A DNA stretch of 64,000 nt from Methanobacteriota archaeon (lineage in GTDB: Archaea; Thermoplasmatota; Poseidoniia; Poseidoniales; Poseidoniaceae), in NCBI GenBank assembly GCA_038141355.1, contig JAYQHX010000009.1, positions 377,978-441,977 of the forward strand, in the 5' to 3' direction. Made by a program: the position numbers and the translations under genes. The notes under the pieces are model-generated. The model did no database searches and had not been told where the DNA came from. It saw nothing but the letters and a program-made list of their open reading frames with translations. Shown here piece after piece: positions 15,138 to 32,275 of the stretch. Position 1 is the stretch's first letter; each line of letters begins with the position of its first letter.

Positions 15138-16037
15138 ATGGCGAGAGACCCTAGAGCCGATATTTTGGAAGACGACCTATTTCCAAAATCTTCTAGGCAA
15201 ATCCATCGAATCCATGCACATAAAACAACAGATGGTACGATACATTTCAACACATCAGGTGGATTTTTTGGAGTAAACAGCAGCCAGCCTGTTGAATTAC
15301 ATCAAGGGAAATTGTGGCACTTCAGTAAAGAGGAAAAAGAGCACTTATTGTTAGCAACTGCCGCATTCACAATCGCACTAGGCCTAATGAGAGTTGGTGG
15401 CCTATTTGGTACAGGCCAATTCTCATCCACCGCATCTTGGGGAGCAATGCTGCTTCTATCGATGCCAGTTATGTTGATTGCAGTAGGGCCAGCATTCATT
15501 CTTCACGAGATTGGACACAAAATAATCGCCAAAAAATATGGTTGCTGGGCTGAGTTTAGAGCAGACCCCGGCGGTTTGAAATTCGGATTAGGATTGTCTG
15601 CAATTTTGGGAATAGTATTCATGGCTCCAGGCGCAGTTATGGTTGCTGGACTAGTCACAAGAAGACAAAATGGTCACATTGCAATAGCGGGCCCAGCTGT
15701 AAATTTCAGTTTATTTTTGATAGGAATTCCATTAGGCGGCATCATCCTTGGTCTTACCGGGTCACAGGATGCTGCAAATTTGGATTATATCTCCAACGGG
15801 GCGATCAACCTCAAAGCGATGTTGTATGATGGTGTTGTATTTTGGATCATGGCAAATCTAATCCTAGGAGCTTTCAACATGATACCAGCAGGCCCTCTTG
15901 ATGGTGTAAAGGTAAAGGATTGGAACGAAAATGTCTGGTTATTTTCCTTCCTGACATTTGTTGGATTACTCGCATTGATGTTTACAGGAACTTGGAGTGC
16001 AATAGATATCGCAATTCAAATCGCAAATCTATTCTGA
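15138..16037 (+). CDS. site-2 protease family (M50) intramembrane metalloprotease
   Basis: Polytopic 299-aa ORF with HEIGHKIIAKKYG (HExxH) and the second family motif NLILGAFNMIPAGPLDG. Confidence 0.75.
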   Translation: MARDPRADILEDDLFPKSSRQIHRIHAHKTTDGTIHFNTSGGFFGVNSSQPVELHQGKLWHFSKEEKEHLLLATAAFTIALGLMRVGGLFGTGQFSSTASWGAMLLLSMPVMLIAVGPAFILHEIGHKIIAKKYGCWAEFRADPGGLKFGLGLSAILGIVFMAPGAVMVAGLVTRRQNGHIAIAGPAVNFSLFLIGIPLGGIILGLTGSQDAANLDYISNGAINLKAMLYDGVVFWIMANLILGAFNMIPAGPLDGVKVKDWNENVWLFSFLTFVGLLALMFTGTWSAIDIAIQIANLF

Positions 16038-16604
16038 TTCAAGGTATGCATTTCTTACCGGATTTTCATCTAGATGGAAGAATGAATATGTGGCCCACCA
16101 CGTGATGGTGTCCAAAGCATCGACTAAATTGCTAGTACCTGACTGGGGATCTCCGTATTCCTTGTTTGAAGTATCCATCCACGCTTCCATCTCATCGAGA
16201 GTATCACAGGTTTGGTGATAACACCAGTATCCATCAACAAGTCCTCCGAATCCCATCGTTACAGTTCCTAGGTTATCTTGGAAAGTAGCATGGTCAGACC
16301 TTGCGGTAGTATCTTCGTAAACGATAATCTCAGGTCTATCTTTATTCAGCCAGTCATCAACTTTCCAAGTATCTGCAGGCAAGTCTGTACCAATCAAAGT
16401 GGACATTTGGTCTTCAACACCGATGGCGTCAGAACCAATCCACATTGCTAAGTTGACCATTCCTGGTTGATTCATAACATCATGGTCAAGACTTGGTCCA
16501 ATGTATACTCTCATCGGCCAAACCTCCTCATCTTTTGGATATCCATCAGGGTCGATAGCAGGGTCGGGGTCACCGTGTGGCGCTCCTCCCCTCCGCCTGG
16601 CCAA
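16029..16604 (-). CDS. M28-family peptidase, C-terminal part
   Basis: Continues the paralog alignment (QPGMVNLAMWIGSDA, TARSDH, DGYWCYHQTCDTLDEME, ITWWATYSFFHLD). It is joined to 16511..17764 by adding one base. Confidence 0.7.
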   Translation of the reverse strand: MARRRGGAPHGDPDPAIDPDGYPKDEEVWPMRVYIGPSLDHDVMNQPGMVNLAMWIGSDAIGVEDQMSTLIGTDLPADTWKVDDWLNKDRPEIIVYEDTTARSDHATFQDNLGTVTMGFGGLVDGYWCYHQTCDTLDEMEAWMDTSNKEYGDPQSGTSNLVDALDTITWWATYSFFHLDENPVRNAYLESE

Positions 16605-17764
16605 TTTACACCAGCCATGTCCAAATTTACGTAATTGGTGACTTCCACGTTAGGGTTATCTTCCTTGACCCAATAATCTGTCCAGTAATCACTACCTCGC
16701 TTTCCGCCTTCCTCACCAGACCACAGACAGAATACCATTGTGTTCCTTGTCTTGTAGCCGGCCATTGCCTCAGCGACGGTCATTACCATACTAGTTCCAG
16801 CAGTATTGTCATATGCTCCGACTCTAGTTCCATAGGTTCTCGATCCGGTTATGTGAGGGTCTAAGGCTACTGCGTTAGCCGGTGGTGCTACATCGAAGTG
16901 AGCGCCAAAAACCATCCATTTGTCAGCATCGACTTCGCCCCATCTGTAGCCACATATGTTGTATGCTTCCGGGTTTTGGACCCCGAAAATATCGGTGTAC
17001 TCGAAGCGATGCGCCATTACTTCCAAACCAAATCTCTCTAGTTCTGCTATGATGTGTAATGCTGCATCTTCGTATGCAGGATTATTCTGACCTGCCCATC
17101 TATCGAGGTATCCTACTGCGCCATCAGCAACATCTAGTGCATCTAGCGATTCATCGGTAAACATCGAGAGATAGTTGTATGTTGTTCTACCATTTACTAC
17201 ACCAGTTGAGTGTCTACCTCCTTCGTCCTCAGGATAACCGGGTTTCATTGGGCGCTCTATTGCAATTCTAGCAGCAATCACCGAACCTCCATTTGAGTCA
17301 GCGGGTAATACTGCATCGAGTGAAGAGTTTGAAGAAACCCTCATAATTCCATTATTCGATTTACTATCTTGACCATCTCTCGCATACCATGTTCTCCAAG
17401 ACTCATCCAAGTCTCTTATTGGCCAATTCTCTCGTCCATATTCTCCGATTAGGATGACGGCTGTATCTGTTCTCGGTGGTGCAAGGACTGTAATCAGTGC
17501 AGATTCACCAGCCTTGATGTCAACAACTGTTGAATTTTGAACGAATCCGGTTTCTGGATTTAGAATCAAATATGGGACAAATGCAGAAAGGTCGGTTTTA
17601 GCAGCGATTGTTAATCCTTGAAATGTCCCTCCAATCAATTTGCTCGGAGTAATAGTGGCGTCGCCCACTTTTAGGGATGAATCATCGTCCTCCCCCAAAC
17701 ATCCACTCAGCGGTGCAACACAGAACAGTATCACTAAGAACATAGCAATAGATGGTCTGTGCAT
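16511..17764 (-). CDS. M28-family exported peptidase (lipoprotein), N-terminal part
   Basis: Signal/lipobox APLSGCLGEDDDS. It aligns by eye with the intact paralog at 26925..28523 (GEYGRENWPIRD, FGAHFD, GAYDNTAGTS, MVFCLWSGEE, NLDMAG). It is broken at the C4 run at 16588-16591. Confidence 0.7.
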   Translation of the reverse strand: MHRPSIAMFLVILFCVAPLSGCLGEDDDSSLKVGDATITPSKLIGGTFQGLTIAAKTDLSAFVPYLILNPETGFVQNSTVVDIKAGESALITVLAPPRTDTAVILIGEYGRENWPIRDLDESWRTWYARDGQDSKSNNGIMRVSSNSSLDAVLPADSNGGSVIAARIAIERPMKPGYPEDEGGRHSTGVVNGRTTYNYLSMFTDESLDALDVADGAVGYLDRWAGQNNPAYEDAALHIIAELERFGLEVMAHRFEYTDIFGVQNPEAYNICGYRWGEVDADKWMVFGAHFDVAPPANAVALDPHITGSRTYGTRVGAYDNTAGTSMVMTVAEAMAGYKTRNTMVFCLWSGEEGGKRGSDYWTDYWVKEDNPNVEVTNYVNLDMAGVNWPGGGEERHTVTPTLLSTLMDIQKMRRFGR

Positions 17765-17893: not shown

Positions 17894-18624
17894 ATGGTAC
17901 GGAATTTACCAACATCTTTGTTGTCTAAAATTGATGAAGTGCAGATATTTCCTCGTAAAGGACAACTTTACCAATTACGCGGAGGGGAAGATCAGGTAAA
18001 TCGATGCGACAGTTTGCCGAAGCATGGACCGCAATGACCCTAATGAATGGCGATTACGTCCATTGGATAGACGGGTCTTGCCGCTTTAATCCAGCTCGAA
18101 TAATCAAATCTTTTCCGCATACTTTAGCGGACCCAGAGCAATTACTCCACGGTTTATTCGTCGGTAGAGGGTTTACCGTGCATCAATTTTCACATTTAAT
18201 TGATAGATTGTACAGCGAGATAAAAATCACCAGGGCTAAATTAGTTGTTGTTGATGGCCCTATTACGATGCACCTAGATTCTCAAATCAGTGATTATGAA
18301 GCAAGGTCATTACTACGCAAATCAATGAACTCATTGGCAATAATCGCAAACAAATTCAACACCAGTATAATTGTAATTACATCTCTGAAAGCATATTCCC
18401 AGCGCCACTCAAATCTATTGACGATGGTTAGTAATAGATGCCAAGCATCACTTTTAGGACGCATTCGAATTGTTCAGGGGCAGAAGAAAATGTGGCTACT
18501 TCATCTTCCAAGCGGCAATTCGGGATATAGGGAGCAGCGAATTGAACAAGAAACATTGCACGATTCAACAAGTAGAGTCATCCATAGTAGACTTAGAATT
18601 GAAGGTAGAGAAGAAATCGAATAG
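17894..18624 (+). CDS. RecA-superfamily ATPase, RadB-like (frame change near 17984-17987)
   Basis: ATG 17894 opens MVRNLPTSLLSKIDEVQIFPRKGQLYQLRGG in one frame, and the track ORF 18004..18624 is in another. Adding one G to the G4 run yields the P-loop GGGRSGKS. Downstream are VHWIDGSCRFNPARI (compare the RadA/RadB YIDTEGTFRPERI) and Walker B KLVVVDG. Confidence 0.6.
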
Positions 18625-21005
18625 GGTGAGTTTTTTCCCCCGTTAACAATTTCTTCATCAGTCCATCCAAATGGCCCCAATATCGCCCAAATAGCCCGTA
18701 TAGCCAATCCTTCATAGTATTGATAATCAACAATAAAATTCACCTTACCTCCTAATTCTTCACAGAGTATTACTCGCGATTTAGAGTCTCCCTCAACCGA
18801 TTTCACAACTACATAACGCACCTTTCTTCCCGGTAGAATATCATGTCCAATTTTCTTTGCACGAATAATTGCATCTTTGGTTGTGGTTGAAACTCTAAAA
18901 TCTTCAATTTTTTTAGTGACCCTTTTGACAACGATCAAGTCTTTGGGCGCTATCTCTCCAGAATATAATCGGTCTAATTGTTCATGAAACATTTTCAAAA
19001 TTCTATTTTGTACAGTAATAGAATCAAATTTATTTTTTGTTTCAATATTTTGCAACAATAGTTCAAGAGCATCATTCTGAATATCTCTAATCCATTGACA
19101 AGTTGAATGCTGTCTCGATTCAATGCCCCTTAATTTGAATCCATTTTGTCCATGTGCCCAGTATTTGGTCAACGATCCTGCACCATGCATTCGGCTTGGT
19201 AAGAACCCGATGAAATCGTATATGTCTTCAAATTCTAAAGGAATTCCAATTTCTTCTGAAACTCTTTTTGAGAGTTGGAGCGCCTTACCGACCTTTTCTT
19301 CTCGGGTTTTGATATTTGGATTCTCTATCCATATACAATCAACTATTGCATGCAGGACATTCCATCCTTCTTCTTCCGCTATTGATATCGTAGTTAGCAA
19401 GATATCTCGAGCCCATGCGCAAATTGCTTCATGCGCCTCAATTCGTCCAAATCTAGCATTCTTGTATCCTGTATAGCCAAAACATGTTACAAGCAACCAT
19501 TTCAGCGCATTTTGTTGTAAGTCATACGAATCACCTTTGGTTTTTCGCAGTTTTTTCAATTGCATTCTTCGCTCTATTAAGGGTGCAACAACCCTACCCA
19601 AAAATCCCTGAACTCGAGCACAGGTGTGCGTTTTTAGTCCGGGCACTTGTAATGCAAATGAATTTGAAGTTGGAAATAATCTTGAAGCAAACAGGTCTTT
19701 TCTTGACCTTTCTCTAAATTCCTTATTTGCTAAATCGGGCTTCAGTGGCACGAAATTATCCTTTGTTGGGTAATCCTCTGTTGTTTGGCAACAAGCACAA
19801 TTCAATGTTTCAGGAGAGATGTTTCGGGTTGCGATAATACTTGGAAACAAACTAGCGAAATCGAGTTCGATAACATCAGAATAAACTCCGGGTTTGCTAT
19901 CCAAATACAACCCGCCTCGGTCAGCAGCTAGTAATTCCCAAGCGGTTTTAGTGTCTTCAGCGCGATTTTTTTTCCAAGGCACCAATACTGAATCTTCCAT
20001 AGCAATTCTCATCTGTATTGCGCTGATTACAGAGCCAGGAGACAATCTTGAGATGTCCTGAGGAGACTGTCTAGAATGGCGACTTAATTCGTAAAGACCT
20101 AGAATCCCTCCCTCTCTAACAATGAAACTTGAATTGAGATCTAAATGCAATCTTCCATGTAAGGGGAAATAGGAGTCCTTGCGTATTACCTGTCCATATG
20201 AATGAACAACACGAGACATTGTTCTCGGTGCTAAAACAGCATTTTTTCTACTGAGATTGAAATCAAAACCAACCTGTTTTGCTAATTTGTCTAATGCTGC
20301 AAAATGTAAGGCGTCTCCGCCCTTTGTTATAATTACATCAGGATTTAATCGATTTATGCAATCCAATATTTCGGATAAGAACGCGCTAATAGAACCAGTT
20401 CGAATGATTTCTACAACTTCTTTCAATGTAGCGTCAAAACCCCCCCAAGTGCCAATTTTTACACATTTCATGTAGGAATCAAGAGTGTGAAAACCGTTCT
20501 TAGAATCATAATCGAACGCCAATTCAACAACCCTCATTTTAGGCCAAGAAGGAACCTCTTCCAATCGAGAAAAGAATTGGCCATCCCACTCCACAAATTC
20601 GAACGGAGAAACACTGTACTCAACAAAAAAGCGTTGTGCTAAATGGGCATCGACCGAATAGAGAGTGAATCGATGATAGTCCCCATGCGATTCAATATGC
20701 TGTGCAAGACGCCGTAAATTACGACTATTGATTACGTCAATTTCTAAGACATTATGCATTTCAAACTCATCTAATGATAGTCTTTTTTTGACAAACCTCA
20801 TTTGGCCAATAGAGAAACGACTTGATATTTCAGGAAGATTCAGCCAAATTTGCAAGCTTCGCAACTTATCGATACTTGCGTGAACATGTATGCATGGGTG
20901 CCAAGGTATTGTTATCAGATGCATTTTTTGTGTATTATCTATCATCCAAACATCCATGCATTGCCCATCGCCTCCTACTTGGACATCAACAATCCAGCCC
21001 TGCAA
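18501..21005 (-). CDS. polB: family B DNA polymerase with degenerate exonuclease motifs
   Basis: 834-aa ORF with motif A ELDFASLFPSII, motif B-like QNALKWLLVTCFGYTGY and motif C region VLHAIVDCIW. The Exo I/II positions read FDYDS and ITKGGDALHFAAL. The last ~35 aa overlap the convergent gene and follow G5/A6 runs, so they may be a frame artefact. Confidence 0.85.
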   Translation of the reverse strand: MQGWIVDVQVGGDGQCMDVWMIDNTQKMHLITIPWHPCIHVHASIDKLRSLQIWLNLPEISSRFSIGQMRFVKKRLSLDEFEMHNVLEIDVINSRNLRRLAQHIESHGDYHRFTLYSVDAHLAQRFFVEYSVSPFEFVEWDGQFFSRLEEVPSWPKMRVVELAFDYDSKNGFHTLDSYMKCVKIGTWGGFDATLKEVVEIIRTGSISAFLSEILDCINRLNPDVIITKGGDALHFAALDKLAKQVGFDFNLSRKNAVLAPRTMSRVVHSYGQVIRKDSYFPLHGRLHLDLNSSFIVREGGILGLYELSRHSRQSPQDISRLSPGSVISAIQMRIAMEDSVLVPWKKNRAEDTKTAWELLAADRGGLYLDSKPGVYSDVIELDFASLFPSIIATRNISPETLNCACCQTTEDYPTKDNFVPLKPDLANKEFRERSRKDLFASRLFPTSNSFALQVPGLKTHTCARVQGFLGRVVAPLIERRMQLKKLRKTKGDSYDLQQNALKWLLVTCFGYTGYKNARFGRIEAHEAICAWARDILLTTISIAEEEGWNVLHAIVDCIWIENPNIKTREEKVGKALQLSKRVSEEIGIPLEFEDIYDFIGFLPSRMHGAGSLTKYWAHGQNGFKLRGIESRQHSTCQWIRDIQNDALELLLQNIETKNKFDSITVQNRILKMFHEQLDRLYSGEIAPKDLIVVKRVTKKIEDFRVSTTTKDAIIRAKKIGHDILPGRKVRYVVVKSVEGDSKSRVILCEELGGKVNFIVDYQYYEGLAIRAIWAILGPFGWTDEEIVNGGKNSPYSISSLPSILSLLWMTLLVESCNVSCSIRCSLYPELPLGR

Positions 21006-21012
21006 AGAATCA

Positions 21013-21270
21013 CTACTCTTCTTCCAATTCTTCTATTCTTTTTTGCAATTGGCTAATCTTTGACTGGCATTCCAAAAGCATCGAGATTAGCATTGGCTTC
21101 CAAGCATCTATTGAAGGCAGCATTCCACCTGCAGCCCTACGGTTTCTTACACCATTCATCAACTCATCAAGGGCTTGGCGATCACTAGCATTTAGCGCAC
21201 GCTTGAAAGAGTTTAGAGAATTCAACTCCGCCTCAACTCTGTTTCTCCAGGTAGGTACTGTTCTGCCCAT
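21013..21270 (-). CDS. hypothetical small alpha-helical protein upstream of polB
   Basis: 85-aa ORF ending 7 nt before the polB start, on the same strand, with an acidic coiled-coil tail QLQKRIEELEEE. No family recognised. Confidence 0.45.
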   Translation of the reverse strand: MGRTVPTWRNRVEAELNSLNSFKRALNASDRQALDELMNGVRNRRAAGGMLPSIDAWKPMLISMLLECQSKISQLQKRIEELEEE

Positions 21271-21643
21271 TAATTGAATTGGGCCGAGGCCGGACAGTAT
21301 GTTTACTCAGAGAGACTATGATTGAAAGTAAAAATGAACAAGCCGACAAAGATAATTAATCTAGGTGATAAAATAATCCTAATCATTATATCTGAACGAC
21401 TTTGGTAATTGGCTATGCGTTTGGTTGTTAGCGAACCTGCTTCTGCGCAACCATCGAGATATGCTTTCAAAGATTACCCATCATCATTTGCTGCATCCTC
21501 ACATATAGAGTTACAAATGGCTAGATTTAATTCTTGAAATTTCAGATGAAATATTTGAAACAATCGAGATAGAAGCATCATTTGTTTCAGGAGAGGGAGG
21601 TTGCGTTGGAGGATATATTGGTTTTTGGACACCAACTAGTGAT

Positions 21644-22624
21644 ATGCTTGCCAAGAATATGCCAGAAAAATCATTTCAATACTTGTATAACGAAACAGAC
21701 AATCTATTTGTAGATTGTAAAACTTGGACTTTTGGAAAAAATGCTAAATTAAATCTTAAGCACAAGGGGTCTGAAAAGCAAATTGAAACAATTCATTTTT
21801 CAATATTAGCAAGGCCAATATTTATGGTAAAAAATGAATCTTTTAAAATAAAATTTAACATTAATGTTGACGATAAAACAACTAATACTCAAGAATTTGA
21901 ATTTAGTAGAGGTGAAAAGATTATACCGGGCGATAAAGTTTCGTTGATGAAGACAGAATACGAGAGATTTGAAAGATATGATGCAATAAAATTAACCGGC
22001 AATGGTAACATTGTTCATCCAAAACAGTATTTTACATTGAGGGGAATCGAATATATTATGGAAAATTATTTACCGGAAAAAGAAGAGTTGAAATTAGGAT
22101 ATGTTGGTACAGACACGACAGAAAATCTCCGCTCATTGATAAGATGGCTAATTACCTCCGATTTACAGGAAAGAATTTCAGAATTGGTCGTCTTCTACAC
22201 AACGGAATGGGACCAAGAGTTTGTATCTCATCTGGGGCTAGAAGATTATATCAAAAATCAGAACCCAAGTTTCAGATTCAAGTTTTATGAACTAAGTGAA
22301 GAGATAATCAATCTTCAGCGGAATGAAAAACAATGCAACATCATGATATCGACTTTTGTCACTCCTTGGATAGAAGGTGATGCGAAGGAACAATATGCAA
22401 ACCTTATTGAGAATTGTTTAGGTGGCGAGGAATCGTATCTTCTTTCTGTTGACCCTCAGTCAGGTGAAAATTCAGTTAGATCTGAGCTGAGCAATCAAAG
22501 TATCAACAATGATGAAATTTACAAATTACGTTTGAAAATGATTACAGCAAAAAGTACGGTTGCTAATGAAAACGAATCAGTGGAATGGTCAATTTGGAAA
22601 AAATCAAGGGGAGGTGAATATTAA
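21644..22624 (+). CDS. hypothetical protein, first gene of the AT-rich island operon (weak class-I methyltransferase-like motif order)
   Basis: 326-aa ORF whose stop overlaps the next start (TAATG at 22622-22626). The C-terminal half shows a Rossmann/MTase-like succession: LKLGYVGTDTTENL, ELVVFYTTEWD, CNIMISTFVTPWI, ESYLLSVDP. The frame stays open upstream to 21509 without a start codon. Confidence 0.55.
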   Translation: MLAKNMPEKSFQYLYNETDNLFVDCKTWTFGKNAKLNLKHKGSEKQIETIHFSILARPIFMVKNESFKIKFNINVDDKTTNTQEFEFSRGEKIIPGDKVSLMKTEYERFERYDAIKLTGNGNIVHPKQYFTLRGIEYIMENYLPEKEELKLGYVGTDTTENLRSLIRWLITSDLQERISELVVFYTTEWDQEFVSHLGLEDYIKNQNPSFRFKFYELSEEIINLQRNEKQCNIMISTFVTPWIEGDAKEQYANLIENCLGGEESYLLSVDPQSGENSVRSELSNQSINNDEIYKLRLKMITAKSTVANENESVEWSIWKKSRGGEY

Positions 22625-24300
22625 TGAAAACCACATTTCTCCAGAATGAAATAATATCCATTCAATCCCTCAAGCAAGGGATTGATATTGACCCTCTCGA
22701 ACACGATTCCGACTTAGAATTAAACCCGCTTCGAGCAAGACTTTCGTTAGAAGATAGATTTCGTGAAGCAATTTTAGAATGTATTGTAAATAGTTATTAT
22801 GTCAAGACGGGGTATTCTCGTTATAATTCAGATAAAGGTAAACTTAGAACCATTCTAGACTTACCAATATTTCAACGTGTAGCAAATAATCCATTTCCTT
22901 TGAGAGGGAATGAAAGCCGTATTCAAACAAAACGCGATATCCAAGGCATATTTCACTCAGATAACATTCTCAGTCATTTTATTGATGAAATATCTGAAAT
23001 CTACTTCGATGGAAGTAATCAAGATAGGGATTTGAGCGGTAAAAGCACCCAACCAAGGTTAACCGAAAAAAGACTGTTAATCATTACAAGATATCTTATT
23101 CAGGTAAACAAGACGGTGAACTTTTCTTTATTATGGAAATTATTCAAAATAAAGAATCAAGCCATTTCTGCCATGAACCCTCGAAAAAGGTTTCAATTGG
23201 TAGAAAAATTGTTAAAGAAAATGTTGAAGCAAAATTCTGAAACTTCACTAGTACTGATTCCCACTAACAGTAAATCTCAAGGAATAAATTTGCTAATATC
23301 AACATTAAAAACCGGTCAAATTAAGCTTAAAATTCCTGAAGCAAAAACAGTGGTATTGAGCCAAATAGATCATTCTGATAGAATTTCGAATGAAGATGGC
23401 GATAGATTTTATTCTCTCTATAAGAAATACATCTCTGGAATATGTGGAAGCTTGTCGTACACATTTTGTGCAAGTAAGCTGACCCGAGTTCAGAAACTCT
23501 ATCATAAAGAATTAATTTTCACCAGTAAACCGGATGGGACTCCTTCAAGAAACGATATAAAAACCTACATTAAATCACAAAAATATTATGGTAAAATGGT
23601 TGAAAAAAGTAATAAAACTGTCAAATATAGCAACTTTTTTAATTTTGTAAGAGAAGACCTTCAAAAATCTAAGTCATTTTTGAGCGACAAACATGACTAC
23701 AACCCGGCAAAAAAAGTGTATTACCAATGGTCATCTGAATCACCTACAGAAACCACCCAAAGAATGGACGAAATACTCAACGAAAACCAGCCAACTAAAG
23801 GCAATTTCACACACGAAGATTTCTTGAAATATAATTTGGAAATGGGCATAGGCACTAAACCACTAATCATTAGTGGAGAAGCAGGGATGGGAAAGACCGT
23901 TGCTATGACAAATTTTGCCTTAGGATATGTTTCAAGGTTGGAAGAAAAAATTTTTGAAAACAAAATAAATGAGATTGCGTCAATACCCTTGCCGATATAC
24001 TTACGAGCGAAAAGAATTATTCATGAACATTCTTTTGAAGAGGCAATTAGCCGTTCGCTTTCTCTTAGGGATAATGATCTTTTGTGCGAATATATTTTTG
24101 ATTCTCTCCCGGAAATGAGAGAACATATCTCGTCAGATGAACTTCAAGAATTAATTTCTTTTATGGAAATCAATAGAACACATTCATTCCACAAATTTGG
24201 TATATTTTATCGACGGATTAGACGAATGCAGAAATCAAAGAGAAGCCAAGGCGATTGTAGAACAATTAACAGAAAAAACAGTGCGAAGGAGAGTAGATGA
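22624..24300 (+). CDS. NACHT/STAND-class P-loop NTPase, N-terminal part (unassigned ~415-aa domain plus Walker A)
   Basis: Walker A LIISGEAGMGKTVAM at 23875-23898. The ORF tail after ~24195 (IFYRRIRRMQKSK...) is out of frame, and the true continuation is the ORF 24197..26116. Confidence 0.7.
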   Translation: MKTTFLQNEIISIQSLKQGIDIDPLEHDSDLELNPLRARLSLEDRFREAILECIVNSYYVKTGYSRYNSDKGKLRTILDLPIFQRVANNPFPLRGNESRIQTKRDIQGIFHSDNILSHFIDEISEIYFDGSNQDRDLSGKSTQPRLTEKRLLIITRYLIQVNKTVNFSLLWKLFKIKNQAISAMNPRKRFQLVEKLLKKMLKQNSETSLVLIPTNSKSQGINLLISTLKTGQIKLKIPEAKTVVLSQIDHSDRISNEDGDRFYSLYKKYISGICGSLSYTFCASKLTRVQKLYHKELIFTSKPDGTPSRNDIKTYIKSQKYYGKMVEKSNKTVKYSNFFNFVREDLQKSKSFLSDKHDYNPAKKVYYQWSSESPTETTQRMDEILNENQPTKGNFTHEDFLKYNLEMGIGTKPLIISGEAGMGKTVAMTNFALGYVSRLEEKIFENKINEIASIPLPIYLRAKRIIHEHSFEEAISRSLSLRDNDLLCEYIFDSLPEMREHISSDELQELISFMEINRTHSFHKFGIFYRRIRRMQKSKRSQGDCRTINRKNSAKESR

Positions 24301-26116
24301 GGATGGCAACACCACCATCGCCACAACAACAACTGAATTGAAACAAAAACCTACGATTGTTATTTCCACTAGGCCAACACATGAAGACATTATTATGAAT
24401 AATATACCAGATTTTGGATTACTTCAAATGAAGCCAGGAGAATACTACACTGAAGAAGAGTTATCAAATCTTATGCCAGTAAAATTATGTGACGCATGGG
24501 GAATAACAAGAGAATCAGGTAGGAAATTATCAGAAGTATTTGATAATTACAAAGAGACTCTAATACATCCATTGTATATTGGTTGGTTTTGCTTTATTAT
24601 TCAAGATGGGAAACTGGGAGAGATAGAGGCCAGCTCCAATGAGCCGGAGATATCAAGATACAATCTCATTTCTAAAATTATAGACATCGGTATTGAATCC
24701 TCTCTAAAGAGAAGAGAATCAAATTTAAGATTAAATGATAAAATAATTCACGGCAAAAATTTCAGAGATTTAATCTTCAAATTTATTTCTGTGGCTTATT
24801 ATTATGATATTTCCAATCCGAAAGAAGTTTTTAGTAAATTAAATCACATCTGGAAACTAGGAAAAAAGACGTTATCAAAAGATGTTAGAAAATCAATTCT
24901 GGAAGATTGTGGCGTTCTATTTTTGGCTGGAAATAAAATCGAATGGACGCACAGAACAACTCCGGAGATTGTATATGCAGATTTCTTCATTAAAACAAAC
25001 GAGAGTATTAAATTCGGCCCACTAAAATTGTCAGAGCCTGTATTGGATAGGATTTCTCAAATAGAATTTGAGAACTATAAGCACCCAACTTTCATGGTTT
25101 CAAAACTATACACTCGCTTCAAATATCTGCCCACCAAAGATTTTCAAGAATATTGCTTTGAATATATTTTGAATTTAACTGACGAGTTCGGAGATTACAA
25201 TTCACTAATATCAATCGATAAAGATGGGGACTTAATTCCATCATCTGGACTTACAGTCAATGAACTTTGGCTAGCAGAATTATACTTACAAAATCTTAGC
25301 TCTCCGAAAAAATTTGCACTTATTATCGAACAATTAGATAGCAAGAATCGAGACAGCATCATTTCAAAAATTTATGAGAATTCATTAGACCCCTTTGGAT
25401 TAGATCTTTTACAACCTATCTATTTTGAAAATGTTATTCCACCTGAAAAAATGATATTAGAAAAATTGGTGCCCCAAACTCGGATTGTAGATTGTATAAG
25501 GTATTATAGAAATATGATTTATTCTGCAAATGAAGCCGGCTCGATAAAAAATGGCACTAGACTACCCGTTCTTGATTTTGAAAGAGCGAAAAATTACGAT
25601 GAAATTTTCGATATTCAATATGCAAATGGAATGTGTAACTATGATGAAGAAGGAATATACAGTTGGTTTTCCGAAGAAAAAGATTGGTCATGGTTTAGCA
25701 AATATGTTTCTGATATTTATGTTAGATATGCATTTAAGAATTTGTTTGGCGAGGATAATTACGAAAAATGCATAAACTTAATTTGGGAAGAAATCGTAAA
25801 TCAAAAAATACCAATAACAGTGGGCACTGGTGATGAAATAGATGTTGTTAATCGTCGTGTAATTATTCATTTCATGCATGAATATGGATTAATTCCATTT
25901 TGGGACTCGGATTCAAGAGGACCGCCTGATTTGATTGAAAGTAAAGAATTCGATTTAGATAGTACAACTGTGAGAGGCATATTCCTCGCTCCAATAATCA
26001 ATGAATGTATTTTAACATCTTCGTTCCTGAAAGGAAAGTGTTCTACAGAAATGTCTGAATTAACTGAAAACTTTTGGCTGCCGTATGAAATGGTCAAAAA
26101 TTACCACCAAGACTAA
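24197..26116 (+). CDS. NACHT/STAND-class NTPase, C-terminal part (Walker B, NACHT core, ~600-aa unassigned C-terminal region)
   Basis: Starts with Walker B VYFIDGLDEC (24200-24229), followed by PTIVISTRP (a NACHT-typical TSRP-like motif). This frame is open from 24155, so it fuses to 22624.. after removing one base. Confidence 0.7.
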   Translation: MVYFIDGLDECRNQREAKAIVEQLTEKTVRRRVDEDGNTTIATTTTELKQKPTIVISTRPTHEDIIMNNIPDFGLLQMKPGEYYTEEELSNLMPVKLCDAWGITRESGRKLSEVFDNYKETLIHPLYIGWFCFIIQDGKLGEIEASSNEPEISRYNLISKIIDIGIESSLKRRESNLRLNDKIIHGKNFRDLIFKFISVAYYYDISNPKEVFSKLNHIWKLGKKTLSKDVRKSILEDCGVLFLAGNKIEWTHRTTPEIVYADFFIKTNESIKFGPLKLSEPVLDRISQIEFENYKHPTFMVSKLYTRFKYLPTKDFQEYCFEYILNLTDEFGDYNSLISIDKDGDLIPSSGLTVNELWLAELYLQNLSSPKKFALIIEQLDSKNRDSIISKIYENSLDPFGLDLLQPIYFENVIPPEKMILEKLVPQTRIVDCIRYYRNMIYSANEAGSIKNGTRLPVLDFERAKNYDEIFDIQYANGMCNYDEEGIYSWFSEEKDWSWFSKYVSDIYVRYAFKNLFGEDNYEKCINLIWEEIVNQKIPITVGTGDEIDVVNRRVIIHFMHEYGLIPFWDSDSRGPPDLIESKEFDLDSTTVRGIFLAPIINECILTSSFLKGKCSTEMSELTENFWLPYEMVKNYHQD

Positions 26117-26146
26117 AATTAAATACTAGCCACCTAATAATTTAGT

Positions 26147-26650
26147 ATGTCAGTTCTTCAGGGATGGTGTAGTAAGCCGCCTCATAATGTAAGAGAGTTA
26201 GAGATTTATTCAGATAAAACCGGCCACGAAAATCCATGCCCGGTATGTAAAGGAGTGGATACCTGCGACGTAGTATGGGTCGAACAATACATGGCTGATT
26301 GGGAACAAAACTCAGCAATCGAACAATCCGGTTGGTCTGGCTCATGTAATACCTTTCCTTCTGGAACACCAGGTGTATTTCAACCAAATCTGATAATTTT
26401 CATTGACAATTATAAATTCAATAAATCGGATTTTGATAATTTCATGCGTTATAGGATAAGAAAACACCTTGGCGGCAATGAAACATATTCAATAAAAATT
26501 GTAGCTCTAAGCCGGGGTAGTTTCAATGCAAAGTTGGAGACTAGTAATTTTAGGAGGATGGTAGATGAATGGAGATTTATAGACCCTACATTTGCACCTG
26601 AAATCCGCCTTGAGGTTTTCAACAATTGGTGGAAGAGAGATTATCCATGA
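26147..26650 (+). CDS. hypothetical protein, third gene of the island operon
   Basis: 167-aa ORF 30 nt downstream of the NTPase, on the same strand, in AT-rich sequence. It has a Cys cluster NPCPVCKGVDTCD. No family recognised. Confidence 0.5.
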   Translation: MSVLQGWCSKPPHNVRELEIYSDKTGHENPCPVCKGVDTCDVVWVEQYMADWEQNSAIEQSGWSGSCNTFPSGTPGVFQPNLIIFIDNYKFNKSDFDNFMRYRIRKHLGGNETYSIKIVALSRGSFNAKLETSNFRRMVDEWRFIDPTFAPEIRLEVFNNWWKRDYP

Positions 26651-26924
26651 TTAATAATTGAGAAATTTTATCGCAACCCAAATACCAAAGGTTTGATAAT
26701 CTTCTAAGTACAATATATTACTGAGGATAATGGTATTAACAGCACCTCTAATACATGAATTACTAAGAAAGAAAAGATGTTCAAAAGGAGTTTGTCGTCC
26801 ACAAAGAACAACTTATCTTTGGGCCAAAATGGTCCGTACAGACGAAGAAGACAAAACCCCAGTAATCGAAGGTTGAGAATTTTAGTAAAGCAAAACGGTC
26901 CTCAATACGGCGTAAAGTTTGACC

Positions 26925-32191: not shown

Positions 32192-32275
32192 GCAGGAGTT
32201 GCCAAGCTTGGTCAACGGCGCTGGGATGAGGTCCCAGTCCTCAACGGTTCGCAGGTTCAAATCCTGCCTCCTGCA
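32192..32275 (+). tRNA. tRNA-Leu (anticodon GAG), class II with long variable arm
   Basis: Cloverleaf folded by hand. Acceptor GCAGGAG/CTCCTGC plus discriminator A; anticodon stem CTGGG/CCCAG with loop AT-GAG-GT (U33, G37); 13-nt variable arm; T arm GCAGG-TTCAAAT-CCTGC. No encoded CCA. Confidence 0.85.

What the first reader, a model, noticed from the sequence alone, without database searches (positions are those of the whole stretch)
21300..26920. AT-rich three-gene island built around a giant NACHT/STAND NTPase: candidate archaeal NLR-like defence or signalling module
Composition drops sharply here. Sampled 60-nt lines inside 21.6-26.6 kb are about 20-30% GC, against about 43% in the flanking peptidase and purine genes. 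Three co-directional ORFs fill the island.

- The first is a 326-aa protein of unknown family. Its stop overlaps the next start (TAATG at 22622-22626).
- The second is a ~1160-aa P-loop protein. It has Walker A GEAGMGKT (23875-23898), Walker B VYFIDGLDEC (24200-24229) and a downstream IVISTRP, the motif order of NACHT/STAND NTPases.
- The third is a 167-aa Cys-containing protein, 30 nt further on.

None of the three partner regions matches a family I recognise. Bacterial NACHT and Avs STAND proteins are established antiphage sensors. An equivalent module with these partners in a marine planktonic archaeon is, to my knowledge, not described. There is no integrase, transposase or flanking tRNA, so the acquisition route is unclear.
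Basis: partly seen in the sequence, partly recalled or inferred. Interest (0 to 1): 0.8.

Follow-up and report, generated by a model that had tools for sequence, protein, structure and literature searches.

The report
Archaeal NACHT–methyltransferase-fold gene pair island
A 5.3-kb AT-rich insert in a marine Group II archaeon (Poseidoniales) carries an immune-receptor-like NACHT ATPase that always travels with a previously unnoticed methyltransferase-shaped partner; this is probably a new two-gene variant of NLR-type antiviral systems, but its function is untested.

Summary
The AT-rich island is real. It is about 21340-26687, 34.0% GC against 42.7% elsewhere, not the 20-30% reported. It sits in a strain-variable hotspot of Poseidoniaceae genomes that is empty or holds other cargo in 11 related genomes.

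The gene model needed correcting. Gene 1 is 402 aa, not 326. The NTPase is split in this sequence by one extra T at 24159, between Walker A and Walker B. All other copies are intact. The window also has private indels in polB and a peptidase, so these are probably assembly errors.

The NTPase is a NACHT-clade STAND protein: it has GxxGxGKT, the D[GAS]hDE signature and the sensor-1 Arg, and NPHP3_N scores above its cutoff.

The core is a two-gene module. Gene 1 is an Ig-like beta-sandwich plus a class I SAM-methyltransferase fold with a non-canonical motif I. It is followed by a family NTPase in 35 of 35 informative loci, usually with stop/start overlap. Some contigs carry 2-3 tandem pairs. One variant carries an HNH nuclease. 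The NTPase C-terminus shows allelic domain swapping. Gene 3 is an orphan found only in this island.

No PADLOC model, viral contig or paper matches. Best reading: a Poseidoniales NLR-like conflict system with a new obligate partner. The defence role is inferred, not shown.

The parts
21340..26687 (.). AT-rich accessory insert (about 5.35 kb, 34.0% GC). It splits a conserved divergent intergenic region between orf85-polB and a 48-aa gene.
   Evidence: Alignment with empty sites L005, L008 and L009; GC. The same junctions occur in metagenome contigs L044 and L030.
21415..22624 (+). Gene 1 (402 aa once the 1-nt insertion at 21509 is removed). N-terminal Ig-like beta-sandwich (about aa 1-168) plus C-terminal class I SAM-methyltransferase-fold domain (about aa 171-396), with invariant IGYIGTDTTEN in place of GxGxG.
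   Evidence: repair; 32 homologues; alignment A3; AF2 pLDDT 85.8, pTM 0.89; Foldseek: TehB, SgvM, NodS, METTL9, HEN1, prob 1.00.
21509..21509 (+).
   Evidence: Absent in L001 and L044.
22624..26116 (+). NACHT-clade STAND NTPase (1163 aa once one T at about 24159 is removed). It appears in the raw sequence as ORFs 22624-24300 and 24197-26116.
   Evidence: Pfam NPHP3_N 27.3-28.2 bits against cutoff 24.8. Family alignment A2.
24159..24159 (+). Window-private extra T (TTTCTTTTATGG against TTTC-CTTATGG) that shifts the frame between Walker A and Walker B.
   Evidence: Absent in L001, L031 and L035; P0001 reads ELISLWKSIEHIHSTNLVYFIDG.
23407..23526 (+). Conserved N-terminal motif FYSLYKKYISGICGSLSYTFCASKLTRVQKLYHKELIF (Y266, Y269, C282, T287, R288 and K291 invariant). 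It lies at the extreme N-terminus in the distant subfamily. Candidate adaptor or partner-binding element.
   Evidence: zero nonsynonymous changes against L001.
23527..23838 (+). Hypervariable linker (aa about 301-405): omega about 1.55, in-frame indels, 84% nt identity to L001. In L051 and P0098 an HNH nuclease domain lies between the conserved N-terminal motif and the NACHT domain, the region this linker occupies here.
   Evidence: HNH_5 45.7 bits in L051; P0098.
23875..23898 (+). Walker A GEAGMGKT.
   Evidence: G419, G421 and K422 invariant in the family.
24200..24229 (+). Walker B VYFIDGLDEC carrying the NACHT signature D[GAS]hDE (DGLDE).
   Evidence: signature definition from Kibby et al..
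24356..24376 (+). Sensor-1 region IVISTRP (R581 invariant). Downstream family motifs: HPLYIGWFC at 24566 and IEWTH at 24938.
24995..26116 (+). NTPase C-terminal about 370 aa, with no detectable family. It is a hotspot of allelic divergence (77-88% nt identity; dS 0.31-0.39 against 0.04-0.10 elsewhere; omega 0.2-0.34). It is unrelated between subfamilies. Presumed sensor domain.
26147..26650 (+). Gene 3 (167 aa), an orphan. It is found only in close variants of this island and has two C-terminal alleles (1-nt indel at 26601). dN/dS is 0.33.
26730..26876 (+). Flanking host gene: a conserved 48-aa protein whose upstream region forms the right edge of the insertion hotspot. It is not part of the module.
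21013..21270 (-). Flanking host gene orf85, upstream of polB, forming the left edge of the hotspot. It is not part of the module.

Best explanation
The insert carries a two-gene NLR-like conflict module, most likely antiviral, that is specific to Poseidoniales-type marine archaea.

Gene 2 is a NACHT STAND NTPase that would act as the switch. By analogy with characterised STAND proteins, its fast-diverging, recombining C-terminal domain recognises an invader-derived cue. Nucleotide-dependent oligomerisation through the NACHT module then activates an output.

Gene 1 is an Ig-like beta-sandwich fused to a methyltransferase-fold enzyme with an unusual, invariant ligand loop. It is an obligate, translationally coupled partner. 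It is probably held or recruited through the conserved N-terminal motif of the NTPase, and acts either as the constant enzymatic effector or as a co-sensor. In some relatives an HNH nuclease lies between that motif and the NACHT domain.

Gene 3 is lineage-specific cargo.

Shown here: NACHT membership motifs, the fold of gene 1, strict pairing, hotspot location, copy-number variation, purifying selection and C-terminal allelic swapping.

Inferred: the defence role, the trigger, the interaction between the two proteins, and the output.

The two frameshifts in this copy are most likely assembly errors, not decay.
For: - **NACHT signature:** GxxGxGKT, D[GAS]hDE and the sensor-1 Arg are invariant across 34 family NTPases, using the definition. 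NPHP3_N is above cutoff. NACHT is above cutoff in relatives L051 and L071. The specific weak PDB profile hits are NLRC4 and NLRP3.
- **Pairing:** 35 of 35 gene 1 copies with at least 1 kb of downstream sequence are followed by a family NTPase. The reverse direction was also checked. Stop and start overlap.
- **Gene 1 fold:** AF2 pLDDT 85.8; Foldseek gives class I SAM methyltransferases at prob 1.00.
- **Accessory status:** the module is absent from 11 syntenic genomes, whose gap is empty or holds other cargo. The same locus is occupied in other metagenomes.
- **Second hotspot:** the same flanks hold one to three tandem modules.
- **Effector-type variant:** an HNH nuclease in L051.
- **Selection:** NACHT omega 0.13-0.19; linker omega 1.55; C-terminal dS 4-9 times higher than elsewhere.
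- **Rarity:** 64 hits among 1.84 billion representative proteins.
Against: - No PADLOC or NCBIfam defence model matches.
- Neighbours at both hotspots are not known defence genes, apart from a thymidylate-kinase-like protein matching candidate family PDC-M51B.
- Other cargos at this hotspot are membrane or secreted proteins, not defence genes.
- The window NTPase has no recognisable effector or sensor domain. The N-terminal model is poor (pLDDT 55.9) with no significant fold match.
- Gene 1 lacks the canonical GxGxG SAM loop, so it may not be a methyltransferase.
- This copy is frameshifted twice.
- There is no experimental evidence, and the host is uncultured.
Confidence: 0.55

Rival explanations
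1. Restriction-modification-like logic. Gene 1 methylates a self molecule (DNA, RNA or protein) as a protective mark. The NACHT NTPase is the restricting component and attacks unmodified invaders, with an HNH nuclease in some variants.
For: Gene 1 has a methyltransferase fold. The gene order puts the protective enzyme first, with translational coupling. L051 and P0098 carry an HNH nuclease. Pairing is obligate.
Against: Gene 1 has no DNA-methyltransferase catalytic motif (no DPPY/NPPY or PC motif) and no canonical GxGxG loop. It has a beta-sandwich rather than a target-recognition domain. The closest folds are small-molecule, protein and RNA methyltransferases. Most NTPases, including this one, have no detectable nuclease.
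Confidence: 0.15
2. A non-immune STAND signalling or regulatory pair. The NTPase would be a ligand-gated regulator in the manner of MalT or AfsR, using a winged-helix segment in its N-terminal region, and would control or partner with the gene 1 enzyme in some niche-specific physiology.
For: The only moderately confident part of the N-terminal model (aa about 140-245, pLDDT 71-81) has a helix-helix-helix-hairpin pattern, and the top fold hits, though not significant, are MarR, PadR, TFE and forkhead winged helices. The hotspots contain non-defence cargo. No defence model hits.
Against: The fold matches are not significant (best E 0.32). Tandem arrays of diverged pairs, C-terminal allele swapping, a fast-evolving linker and an HNH-bearing variant are typical of conflict systems rather than metabolic regulators. 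No conserved target operon lies next to the module.
Confidence: 0.15
3. A decaying pseudogene remnant of a horizontally acquired island that no longer functions in this organism.
For: Two frame-breaking 1-nt insertions are specific to this copy, at 21509 and 24159.
Against: All other copies from at least six samples are intact. Every other indel against L001 is a multiple of 3, and dN/dS is 0.13-0.5. The window also has private indels that remove the conserved polB C-terminus and split an M28 peptidase. The source is a 446-kb contig. Together these point to assembly errors.
Confidence: 0.1
4. Cargo of a virus or other mobile element (provirus remnant, or an addiction module) rather than a host system.
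For: Low GC. The insertion is at a hotspot. The flanking orf85 matches two PHROG families of unknown function.
Against: No relatives of gene 1 or the NTPase occur in 2.9 million viral contigs. PHROGs gives no hit for any island protein. There is no integrase, repeat or tRNA target. orf85 is a conserved host gene present in all 26 fetched loci that include the DNA directly upstream of polB.
Confidence: 0.05

Closest known systems
Bacterial NACHT (bNACHT) NLR-related antiphage proteins (Kibby et al.; bioRxiv 10.1101/2022.07.19.500537)
   Same: Central NACHT module with Walker A, the D[GAS]hDE Walker B signature and the sensor-1 Arg. [quoted passage not shown] The C-terminal region is variable. 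The genes are patchily distributed accessory genes.
   Different: bNACHT systems are described mainly as single polypeptides with fused effectors. Here an obligate, translationally coupled partner gene with a methyltransferase fold precedes the NTPase in every informative locus. No PADLOC bNACHT model matches. The C-terminal domain has no recognised repeat or FGS domain. The host is a planktonic archaeon.
Avs (antiviral STAND) pattern-recognition receptors, and the 2026 survey of 589 prokaryotic STAND clades (PMC13581612)
   Same: STAND logic: sensor, NTPase switch, effector. The sensor end diversifies. Nuclease effectors occur in some members.
   Different: This family belongs to the NACHT clade, not the Avs1-4 clades. 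There is no Avs model hit. The paper mentions neither operons nor methyltransferases. I could not check whether this family is one of the 589 clades.
Eukaryotic NLR gene clusters (NLRC4, NLRP3 and related)
   Same: NACHT proteins are the specific PDB hits of the family profile. The tandem arrays of diverged paralogues at one locus and the domain swapping resemble NLR cluster evolution.
   Different: Sequence similarity is weak (E 1e-4 to 1e-2). There are no LRR, CARD or PYD domains. A separate enzymatic partner gene is present.
Class I SAM-dependent methyltransferases (TehB, NodS, SgvM, METTL9, HEN1)
   Same: The gene 1 C-terminal domain has the Rossmann-like methyltransferase fold (Foldseek prob 1.00). 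It has an FDxVxS-like beta-4 motif (CDIIISTYVAPW) and a conserved acidic residue after beta-2.
   Different: Identity is about 10%. No Pfam methyltransferase family matches. Motif I GxGxG is replaced by an invariant GTDTTEN. An N-terminal Ig-like beta-sandwich is fused. Activity is untested.

Membership tests
NACHT clade of STAND NTPases | Walker A P-loop GxxxxGK[ST] | tested here: met
   GEAGMGKT at 23875-23898. G419, G421 and K422 are invariant in alignment A2, and the motif is present in all 34 family NTPases.
NACHT clade of STAND NTPases | Walker B with the NACHT-specific D[GAS]hDE signature (definition quoted from Kibby et al.) | tested here: met
   DGLDE in the window. Relatives have DGLDE, DALDE, DGMDE, DAWDE or DAYDE in all 34 cases. 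D528, D531 and E532 are invariant.
NACHT clade of STAND NTPases | Sensor-1 arginine after the Walker B strand (established knowledge of STAND and AAA+ proteins) | tested here: met
   IVISTRP; R581 is invariant.
NACHT clade of STAND NTPases | Score above the curated cutoff of a NACHT-type Pfam model | tested here: inconclusive
   PF05729 NACHT scores 22.1-22.8 bits against a cutoff of 26.7, so it is not reached. PF24883 NPHP3_N scores 27.3-28.2 against 24.8, so it is reached. NACHT passes in relatives L051 (29.5) and L071 (28.5). Across the family, 17 of 26 members hit NACHT and 21 of 26 hit NPHP3_N at E<=1e-3.
NACHT clade of STAND NTPases | Helical domain plus winged-helix extension C-terminal to the NTPase core | tested here: inconclusive
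   Family-conserved motifs MPxKLxDAWGI, HPLFVGWFC and IEWTHxTxPE lie where the HD and WHD are expected. No structure of this region was modelled.
Known antiphage STAND systems (Avs, bNACHT and others, as modelled in PADLOC 2.0 and NCBIfam) | Significant match to a system model | tested here: not met
   PADLOC finds no family for any of the three proteins and nothing meaningful across 26 relatives. NCBIfam gives only EruA at 14.3 bits against a cutoff of 1000.
Class I SAM-dependent methyltransferases (gene 1 C-terminal domain) | Rossmann-like seven-strand methyltransferase fold | tested here: met
   AF2 pLDDT 85.8. Foldseek PDB hits TehB (7.7e-8), SgvM, NodS, METTL9 and HEN1 at prob 1.00. BFVD hits are class I methyltransferases.
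Class I SAM-dependent methyltransferases (gene 1 C-terminal domain) | Motif I glycine-rich SAM-binding loop (E/D)xGxGxG | tested here: not met
   The loop after beta-1 reads IGYIGTDTTEN, with D233, T234, T235, E236 and N237 invariant in 32 sequences. No Pfam methyltransferase family hits.
Class I SAM-dependent methyltransferases (gene 1 C-terminal domain) | SAM binding and methyl transfer | not testable with these tools
   Needs biochemistry.
Restriction-modification systems | DNA methyltransferase catalytic motif ((D/N/S)PP(Y/F/W), or PC) together with a nuclease partner | tested here: not met
   Alignment A3 has no such motif. A nuclease (HNH) is present only in the L051 and P0098 variants, not in the window protein.
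Integrase-mobilised genomic island | Integrase or recombinase, flanking direct repeats, tRNA or small-RNA target | tested here: not met
   The insert holds only the three ORFs. There are no flanking repeats, no tRNA nearby and no Rfam family. The conserved flank is a 48-aa protein gene, not an RNA.

The most novel reading that the evidence does not exclude
The gene 1 protein is a new kind of NLR partner: a methyltransferase-fold enzyme with a re-engineered ligand loop (GTDTTEN), held by the NACHT N-terminal motif and switched on by NACHT oligomerisation, or serving as a guarded co-sensor through its variable Ig-like domain. That would define a previously unrecognised two-component immune family. 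The family would have expanded into NLR-like tandem arrays and would swap sensor domains in Poseidoniales, one of the most abundant uncultured archaeal groups in the surface ocean.
Probability: 0.3. Interest if true: 0.8.

Novelty: new variant of a known kind. Interest (0 to 1): 0.62.

Why it matters
[quoted passage not shown] They remain uncultured, and I found no description of NACHT or STAND systems in them. A lineage-restricted NACHT family with an obligate enzyme partner would add a new effector or co-sensor logic to NLR-type immunity. It shows hotspot insertion, tandem arrays and sensor-domain swapping. It also offers a concrete, small (about 4.7 kb) two-gene unit that can be tested heterologously, and its alleles could serve as markers of virus-host arms races in metagenomic time series. 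On the practical side, the public record of this locus carries frameshifts that hide both genes from annotation.

Tried and rejected
- **Programmed frameshift or true pseudogene.** Rejected as the leading reading. All other alleles are in frame. The window has private indels in polB and a peptidase too.
- **Integration next to a small RNA gene.** The flanking intergenic stretch is 75-88% conserved across genomes whose proteins are only about 70% identical. Rfam found nothing. The variation falls on third codon positions, which revealed a 48-aa protein gene. Rejected.
- **Flanking direct or inverted repeats.** Only chance-level short matches.
- **Known defence systems.** PADLOC, NCBIfam and PHROGs are all negative for the three proteins.
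- **Viral origin.** No relatives of gene 1 or the NTPase in viral contigs.
- **Sequence-level PDB relatives.** None for gene 1. Only weak NACHT and mS29 hits for the NTPase.
- **NTPase N-terminal structure.** A low-confidence model (pLDDT 55.9) with no significant fold match.
- **Sigma-70 promoter and terminator scan.** No enrichment, and it does not apply to archaea.
- **Gene 3.** No homologues beyond the island's own variants and no family.
- **First word-indexed search with the NTPase.** It found only one homologue. The exhaustive HMMER search was needed to see the family.

Full report
**Observation check**

The composition drop is real but milder than reported. Window 21300-26920 is 34.1% GC against 42.7% for the rest. 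It is the lowest 5.6-kb stretch in the window, about 3.3 sd below the mean of all such stretches. The 60-nt lines inside it average 34.0%, and only 30% of them are at or below 30% GC. Much of the shift lies in codon positions 1 and 2, reflecting K-, I-, S- and L-rich proteins, and not only in position 3.

Three co-directional coding regions fill the segment, and the reported motif coordinates are exact. Two points of the gene model were wrong.
- **The NTPase is not one ORF here.** Walker A (frame of 22624) and Walker B (frame of 24197) lie in different frames.
- **The first ORF is only a tail.** The 326-aa ORF is the C-terminal part of a roughly 400-aa gene that starts at 21415.

**The frameshifts**

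The closest homologous contig is L001. It is 5303 bp and 93.4% identical over window 21398-26676, and it encodes intact proteins of 402, 1171 and 167 aa. Relative to L001, the window has single-base insertions at 21509 and 24159. Every other indel is a multiple of three. Further contigs from other samples (L031, L035, L044) also lack both insertions. Removing each base restores a 402-aa gene 1 and a 1163-aa NTPase.

The window carries further private indels outside the island.
- **polB:** a 1-nt deletion at 18640 replaces the conserved C-terminus (…KKLTLFDFF…, which resembles a PIP box) with an out-of-frame read-through.
- **M28 peptidase paralogue:** there is a frame change near 16541-16595.

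The window's truncated 558-aa ORF is already in the public collection, on a 446-kb NCBI contig. I therefore read the frameshifts as assembly errors (about 75%) rather than island-specific decay.

**Where the island sits**

polB-anchored loci from 28 reference genomes identify the organism as a Poseidoniales (Marine Group II) archaeon of the Poseidoniaceae. The best polB match is 73% identical. Eleven genomes share the order orf280 – M28 peptidase – [gap] – orf85 – polB – radA-like – peptidase – orf299. The contents of the gap vary:

| Gap | Loci | Contents |
|---|---|---|
| about 289 bp | L005, L008, L009 | empty |
| about 1 kb | L003, L018, L027, L028 | a zinc-ribbon membrane protein |
| 1.9 kb | L022 | zinc-ribbon protein plus an ion-channel-like protein |
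| 4.05 kb | L006 | three unrelated genes |
| 4.66 kb | L002 | zinc-ribbon protein plus a 1159-aa secreted protein |
| 5.35 kb | the window | the NACHT island |

None of the 28 reference loci has the island genes. Alignment with the empty sites places the insert at about 21340-26687. Metagenome contigs at 95-96% identity (L044, L030 and others, from at least six samples) carry the island at the same junctions.

There are no flanking repeats, tRNA, Rfam family or integrase. The conserved right flank looked like a possible RNA gene. It turned out to be a 48-aa protein gene with third-codon-position variation, plus its promoter. The cargos of the window, L002 and L022 all begin at the same point upstream of it.

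**The NTPase**

- **Profile hits:** Pfam gives NPHP3_N above its cutoff, with NACHT and AAA_16 just below theirs.
- **Family size:** an exhaustive HMMER search of 1.84 billion representative proteins found only 64 relatives. About eight are full-length at 31-40% identity.
- **NACHT module motifs:** across the family the invariant positions are Walker A, Walker B (D528, D531, E532) and the sensor-1 Arg.
- **Downstream family motifs:** MPxKLxDAWGI, HPLFVGWFC and IEWTHxTxPE are also conserved.
- **NACHT signature:** D[GAS]hDE, as defined by Kibby et al., is present in all 34 family NTPases examined.
- **Family-wide Pfam and PDB:** 17 of 26 relatives hit NACHT and 21 of 26 hit NPHP3_N. The specific PDB profile hits are NLRC4 and NLRP3, though weak.
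- **N-terminal motif:** a 35-40-aa motif (…LYKKYIxxLxxSLSFxxCASKLTRVxKLY) is conserved. In a distant subfamily it sits at the very N-terminus. In the window's subfamily it follows a roughly 260-aa extension.
- **C-terminal region:** similarity between subfamilies ends after the winged-helix motifs, so the C-terminal 350-400 aa are unrelated between them.
- **Effector-type variants:** one relative (L051) and a fragment (P0098) carry a bona fide HNH nuclease between the N-terminal motif and the NACHT domain. Another relative (P0036) has an N-terminal TPR array.
- **No confident N-terminal fold:** the window protein's N-terminal 415 aa gave a poor model (pLDDT 55.9) with no significant fold match. 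The only moderately confident segment looks like a winged helix.

**Gene 1**

It has 32 full-length relatives at about 40% identity and no Pfam family. The C-terminal half carries invariant motifs: GNIVHPKQ, IGYIGTDTTEN, FYTTxWD, CDIxISTYVAPW, LLSVDP…SVRS and SVEWSIWKK.

AlphaFold2 on this alignment gave a confident model (pLDDT 85.8, pTM 0.89). It has an all-beta N-terminal domain (aa 1-168) and an alpha/beta C-terminal domain. Foldseek matches the C-terminal domain to class I SAM methyltransferases (TehB, SgvM, NodS, METTL9, HEN1; prob 1.00, about 10% identity). It matches the N-terminal domain to Ig-like and adhesin folds.

The canonical GxGxG SAM loop is replaced by an invariant GTDTTEN, so methyltransferase activity is not assured. 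The beta-sandwich is more variable than the enzyme-fold domain (27% against 43% mean pairwise identity).

**The module**

- **Pairing:** I fetched 42 marine metagenome loci with the gene 1 profile, plus contigs found by exact look-up. Every gene 1 copy with at least 1 kb of downstream sequence (35 of 35) is followed directly by a family NTPase. All 16 exceptions lie within about 800 bp of a contig end.
- **Coupling:** stop and start usually overlap by 1-4 nt.
- **Reverse check:** NTPases looked up independently are preceded by a gene of matching size. For L041 and L086 that gene was confirmed as gene 1 family, and for P0042 it is an overlapping 387-aa gene.
- **Tandem arrays:** several contigs carry two or three pairs (L066, L067, L070, L074, L083).
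- **Second hotspot:** L071, L074, L082 and L083 have the same flanking genes but hold one to three modules.
- **Host lineage:** the downstream short-chain dehydrogenase at that site is 63-70% identical to a gene in a Poseidoniales reference genome. L040 also has Poseidoniales-like flanks.
- **Gene 3:** it occurs only in close variants of this island.
- **Viral contigs:** neither gene 1 nor the NTPase has relatives among 2.9 million of them.

**Selection, window against L001**

| Region | Result |
|---|---|
| NACHT core | omega 0.13-0.19 |
| N-terminal motif (aa 261-300) | zero nonsynonymous changes |
| Linker aa 301-405 | omega about 1.55, with in-frame indels |
| C-terminal about 370 aa | dS 0.31-0.39 (0.04-0.10 elsewhere), omega 0.2-0.34 |
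| Gene 1 | omega 0.49 overall, 0.35 downstream of the first 76 codons |
| Gene 3 | omega 0.33 |

The C-terminal pattern indicates allelic recombination of the domain under continued purifying selection.

**Interpretation**

The evidence supports a NACHT-clade STAND NTPase in an accessory, hotspot-borne, copy-number-variable, diversifying two-gene module. These are the evolutionary hallmarks of NLR-like conflict systems, and an HNH-bearing variant points the same way.

The evidence does not show defence.
- PADLOC and NCBIfam defence models are silent.
- The neighbourhoods are not classical defence islands. The only hint is a thymidylate-kinase-like neighbour matching PADLOC candidate family PDC-M51B.
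- The window protein has no recognisable effector.

My best mechanism, at 0.55 confidence, is that the NACHT protein senses an invader cue through its variable C-terminal domain and oligomerises. Gene 1 would be its obligate effector or co-sensor, coupled through the conserved N-terminal motif. The rivals are restriction-modification-like self-marking (0.15), a non-immune STAND regulator (0.15), a true pseudogene remnant (0.10) and mobile-element cargo (0.05).

**Comparison and novelty**

NACHT proteins in bacteria and archaea are known. A 2026 survey lists 589 prokaryotic STAND clades. I found no paper linking NACHT or STAND proteins to Poseidoniales, or to a methyltransferase-fold partner. 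I therefore rate this a new variant of a known kind.

The family meets the sequence-defined NACHT features. It fails the model-based tests for known defence systems. Its partner has the methyltransferase fold but not the canonical cofactor loop.

Noticed in passing
window 18004-21270 (radA-like, polB, orf85), compared with L002 and L022: The orf85-polB-radA-like block is only 72-76% identical in protein to the two closest genomes. The genes on both sides (two M28 peptidases, orf299, orf280, orf597) are 86-92% identical. This looks like a divergent or exchanged replication-gene block within conserved flanks. orf85 also matches two PHROG families of unknown function (phrog_30126, E 2e-8).
   Followed up: no
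window 18640, 17984 and about 16541-16595: The window has private 1-nt indels outside the island. One removes the conserved polB C-terminus (the population allele ends …KKLTLFDFFSTFNSKSTMDDSTC). One lies in an intergenic G-run. A frame change splits the M28 peptidase paralogue 16029-17764. This suggests assembly indel errors in the source record.
   Followed up: partly
window 26730-26876 (+): A conserved 48-aa protein gene (MVLTAPLIHELLRKKRCSKGVCRPQRTTYLWAKMVRTDEEDKTPVIEG) is present in 13 Poseidoniaceae loci with third-codon-position variation. It has no Pfam family. Its upstream region marks the shared insertion point of three different cargos.
   Followed up: partly
L002:3309-7785, L022:4466-6204, L006:5686-9442, L003:6096-6776: The same pepB|orf85 hotspot holds other cargo in related genomes: a zinc-ribbon membrane protein of about 226 aa in six genomes, an ion-transport-like 284-aa protein, a 1159-aa secreted protein, and three unrelated genes in L006.
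   Followed up: partly
L074:2242-15000, L070:2245-12858, L066, L067, L083: These contigs carry tandem arrays of two or three diverged gene 1-NTPase pairs. L071, L074, L082 and L083 share the same flanking genes but hold different numbers of modules. A thymidylate-kinase-like neighbour matches PADLOC candidate PDC-M51B (5e-12).
   Followed up: partly
L051:2962-5295 and protein P0098: Family NTPase variants carry an HNH endonuclease domain (HNH_5 45.7 bits) between the conserved N-terminal motif and the NACHT domain. In the motif EVDQF the usual histidine is a glutamine.
   Followed up: partly
window 26601: A 1-nt indel near the 3' end of gene 3 defines two natural alleles with different last ~16 residues: 167 aa in the window and L001, and 168 aa in L030-L039.
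   Followed up: no
window 32192-32275: ARAGORN calls a tRNA-Leu(GAG) here, but the Rfam gathering-threshold scan of the whole window returned no hit at all.
   Followed up: no
L040:1-3108: A 66-kb contig carries a gene 1-NTPase pair in which the NTPase is split in two, in a pilon-polished assembly. It also encodes a 1230-aa protein with a PF00940 single-subunit RNA-polymerase hit, next to archaeal-type genes such as ribosomal L15e.
   Followed up: no
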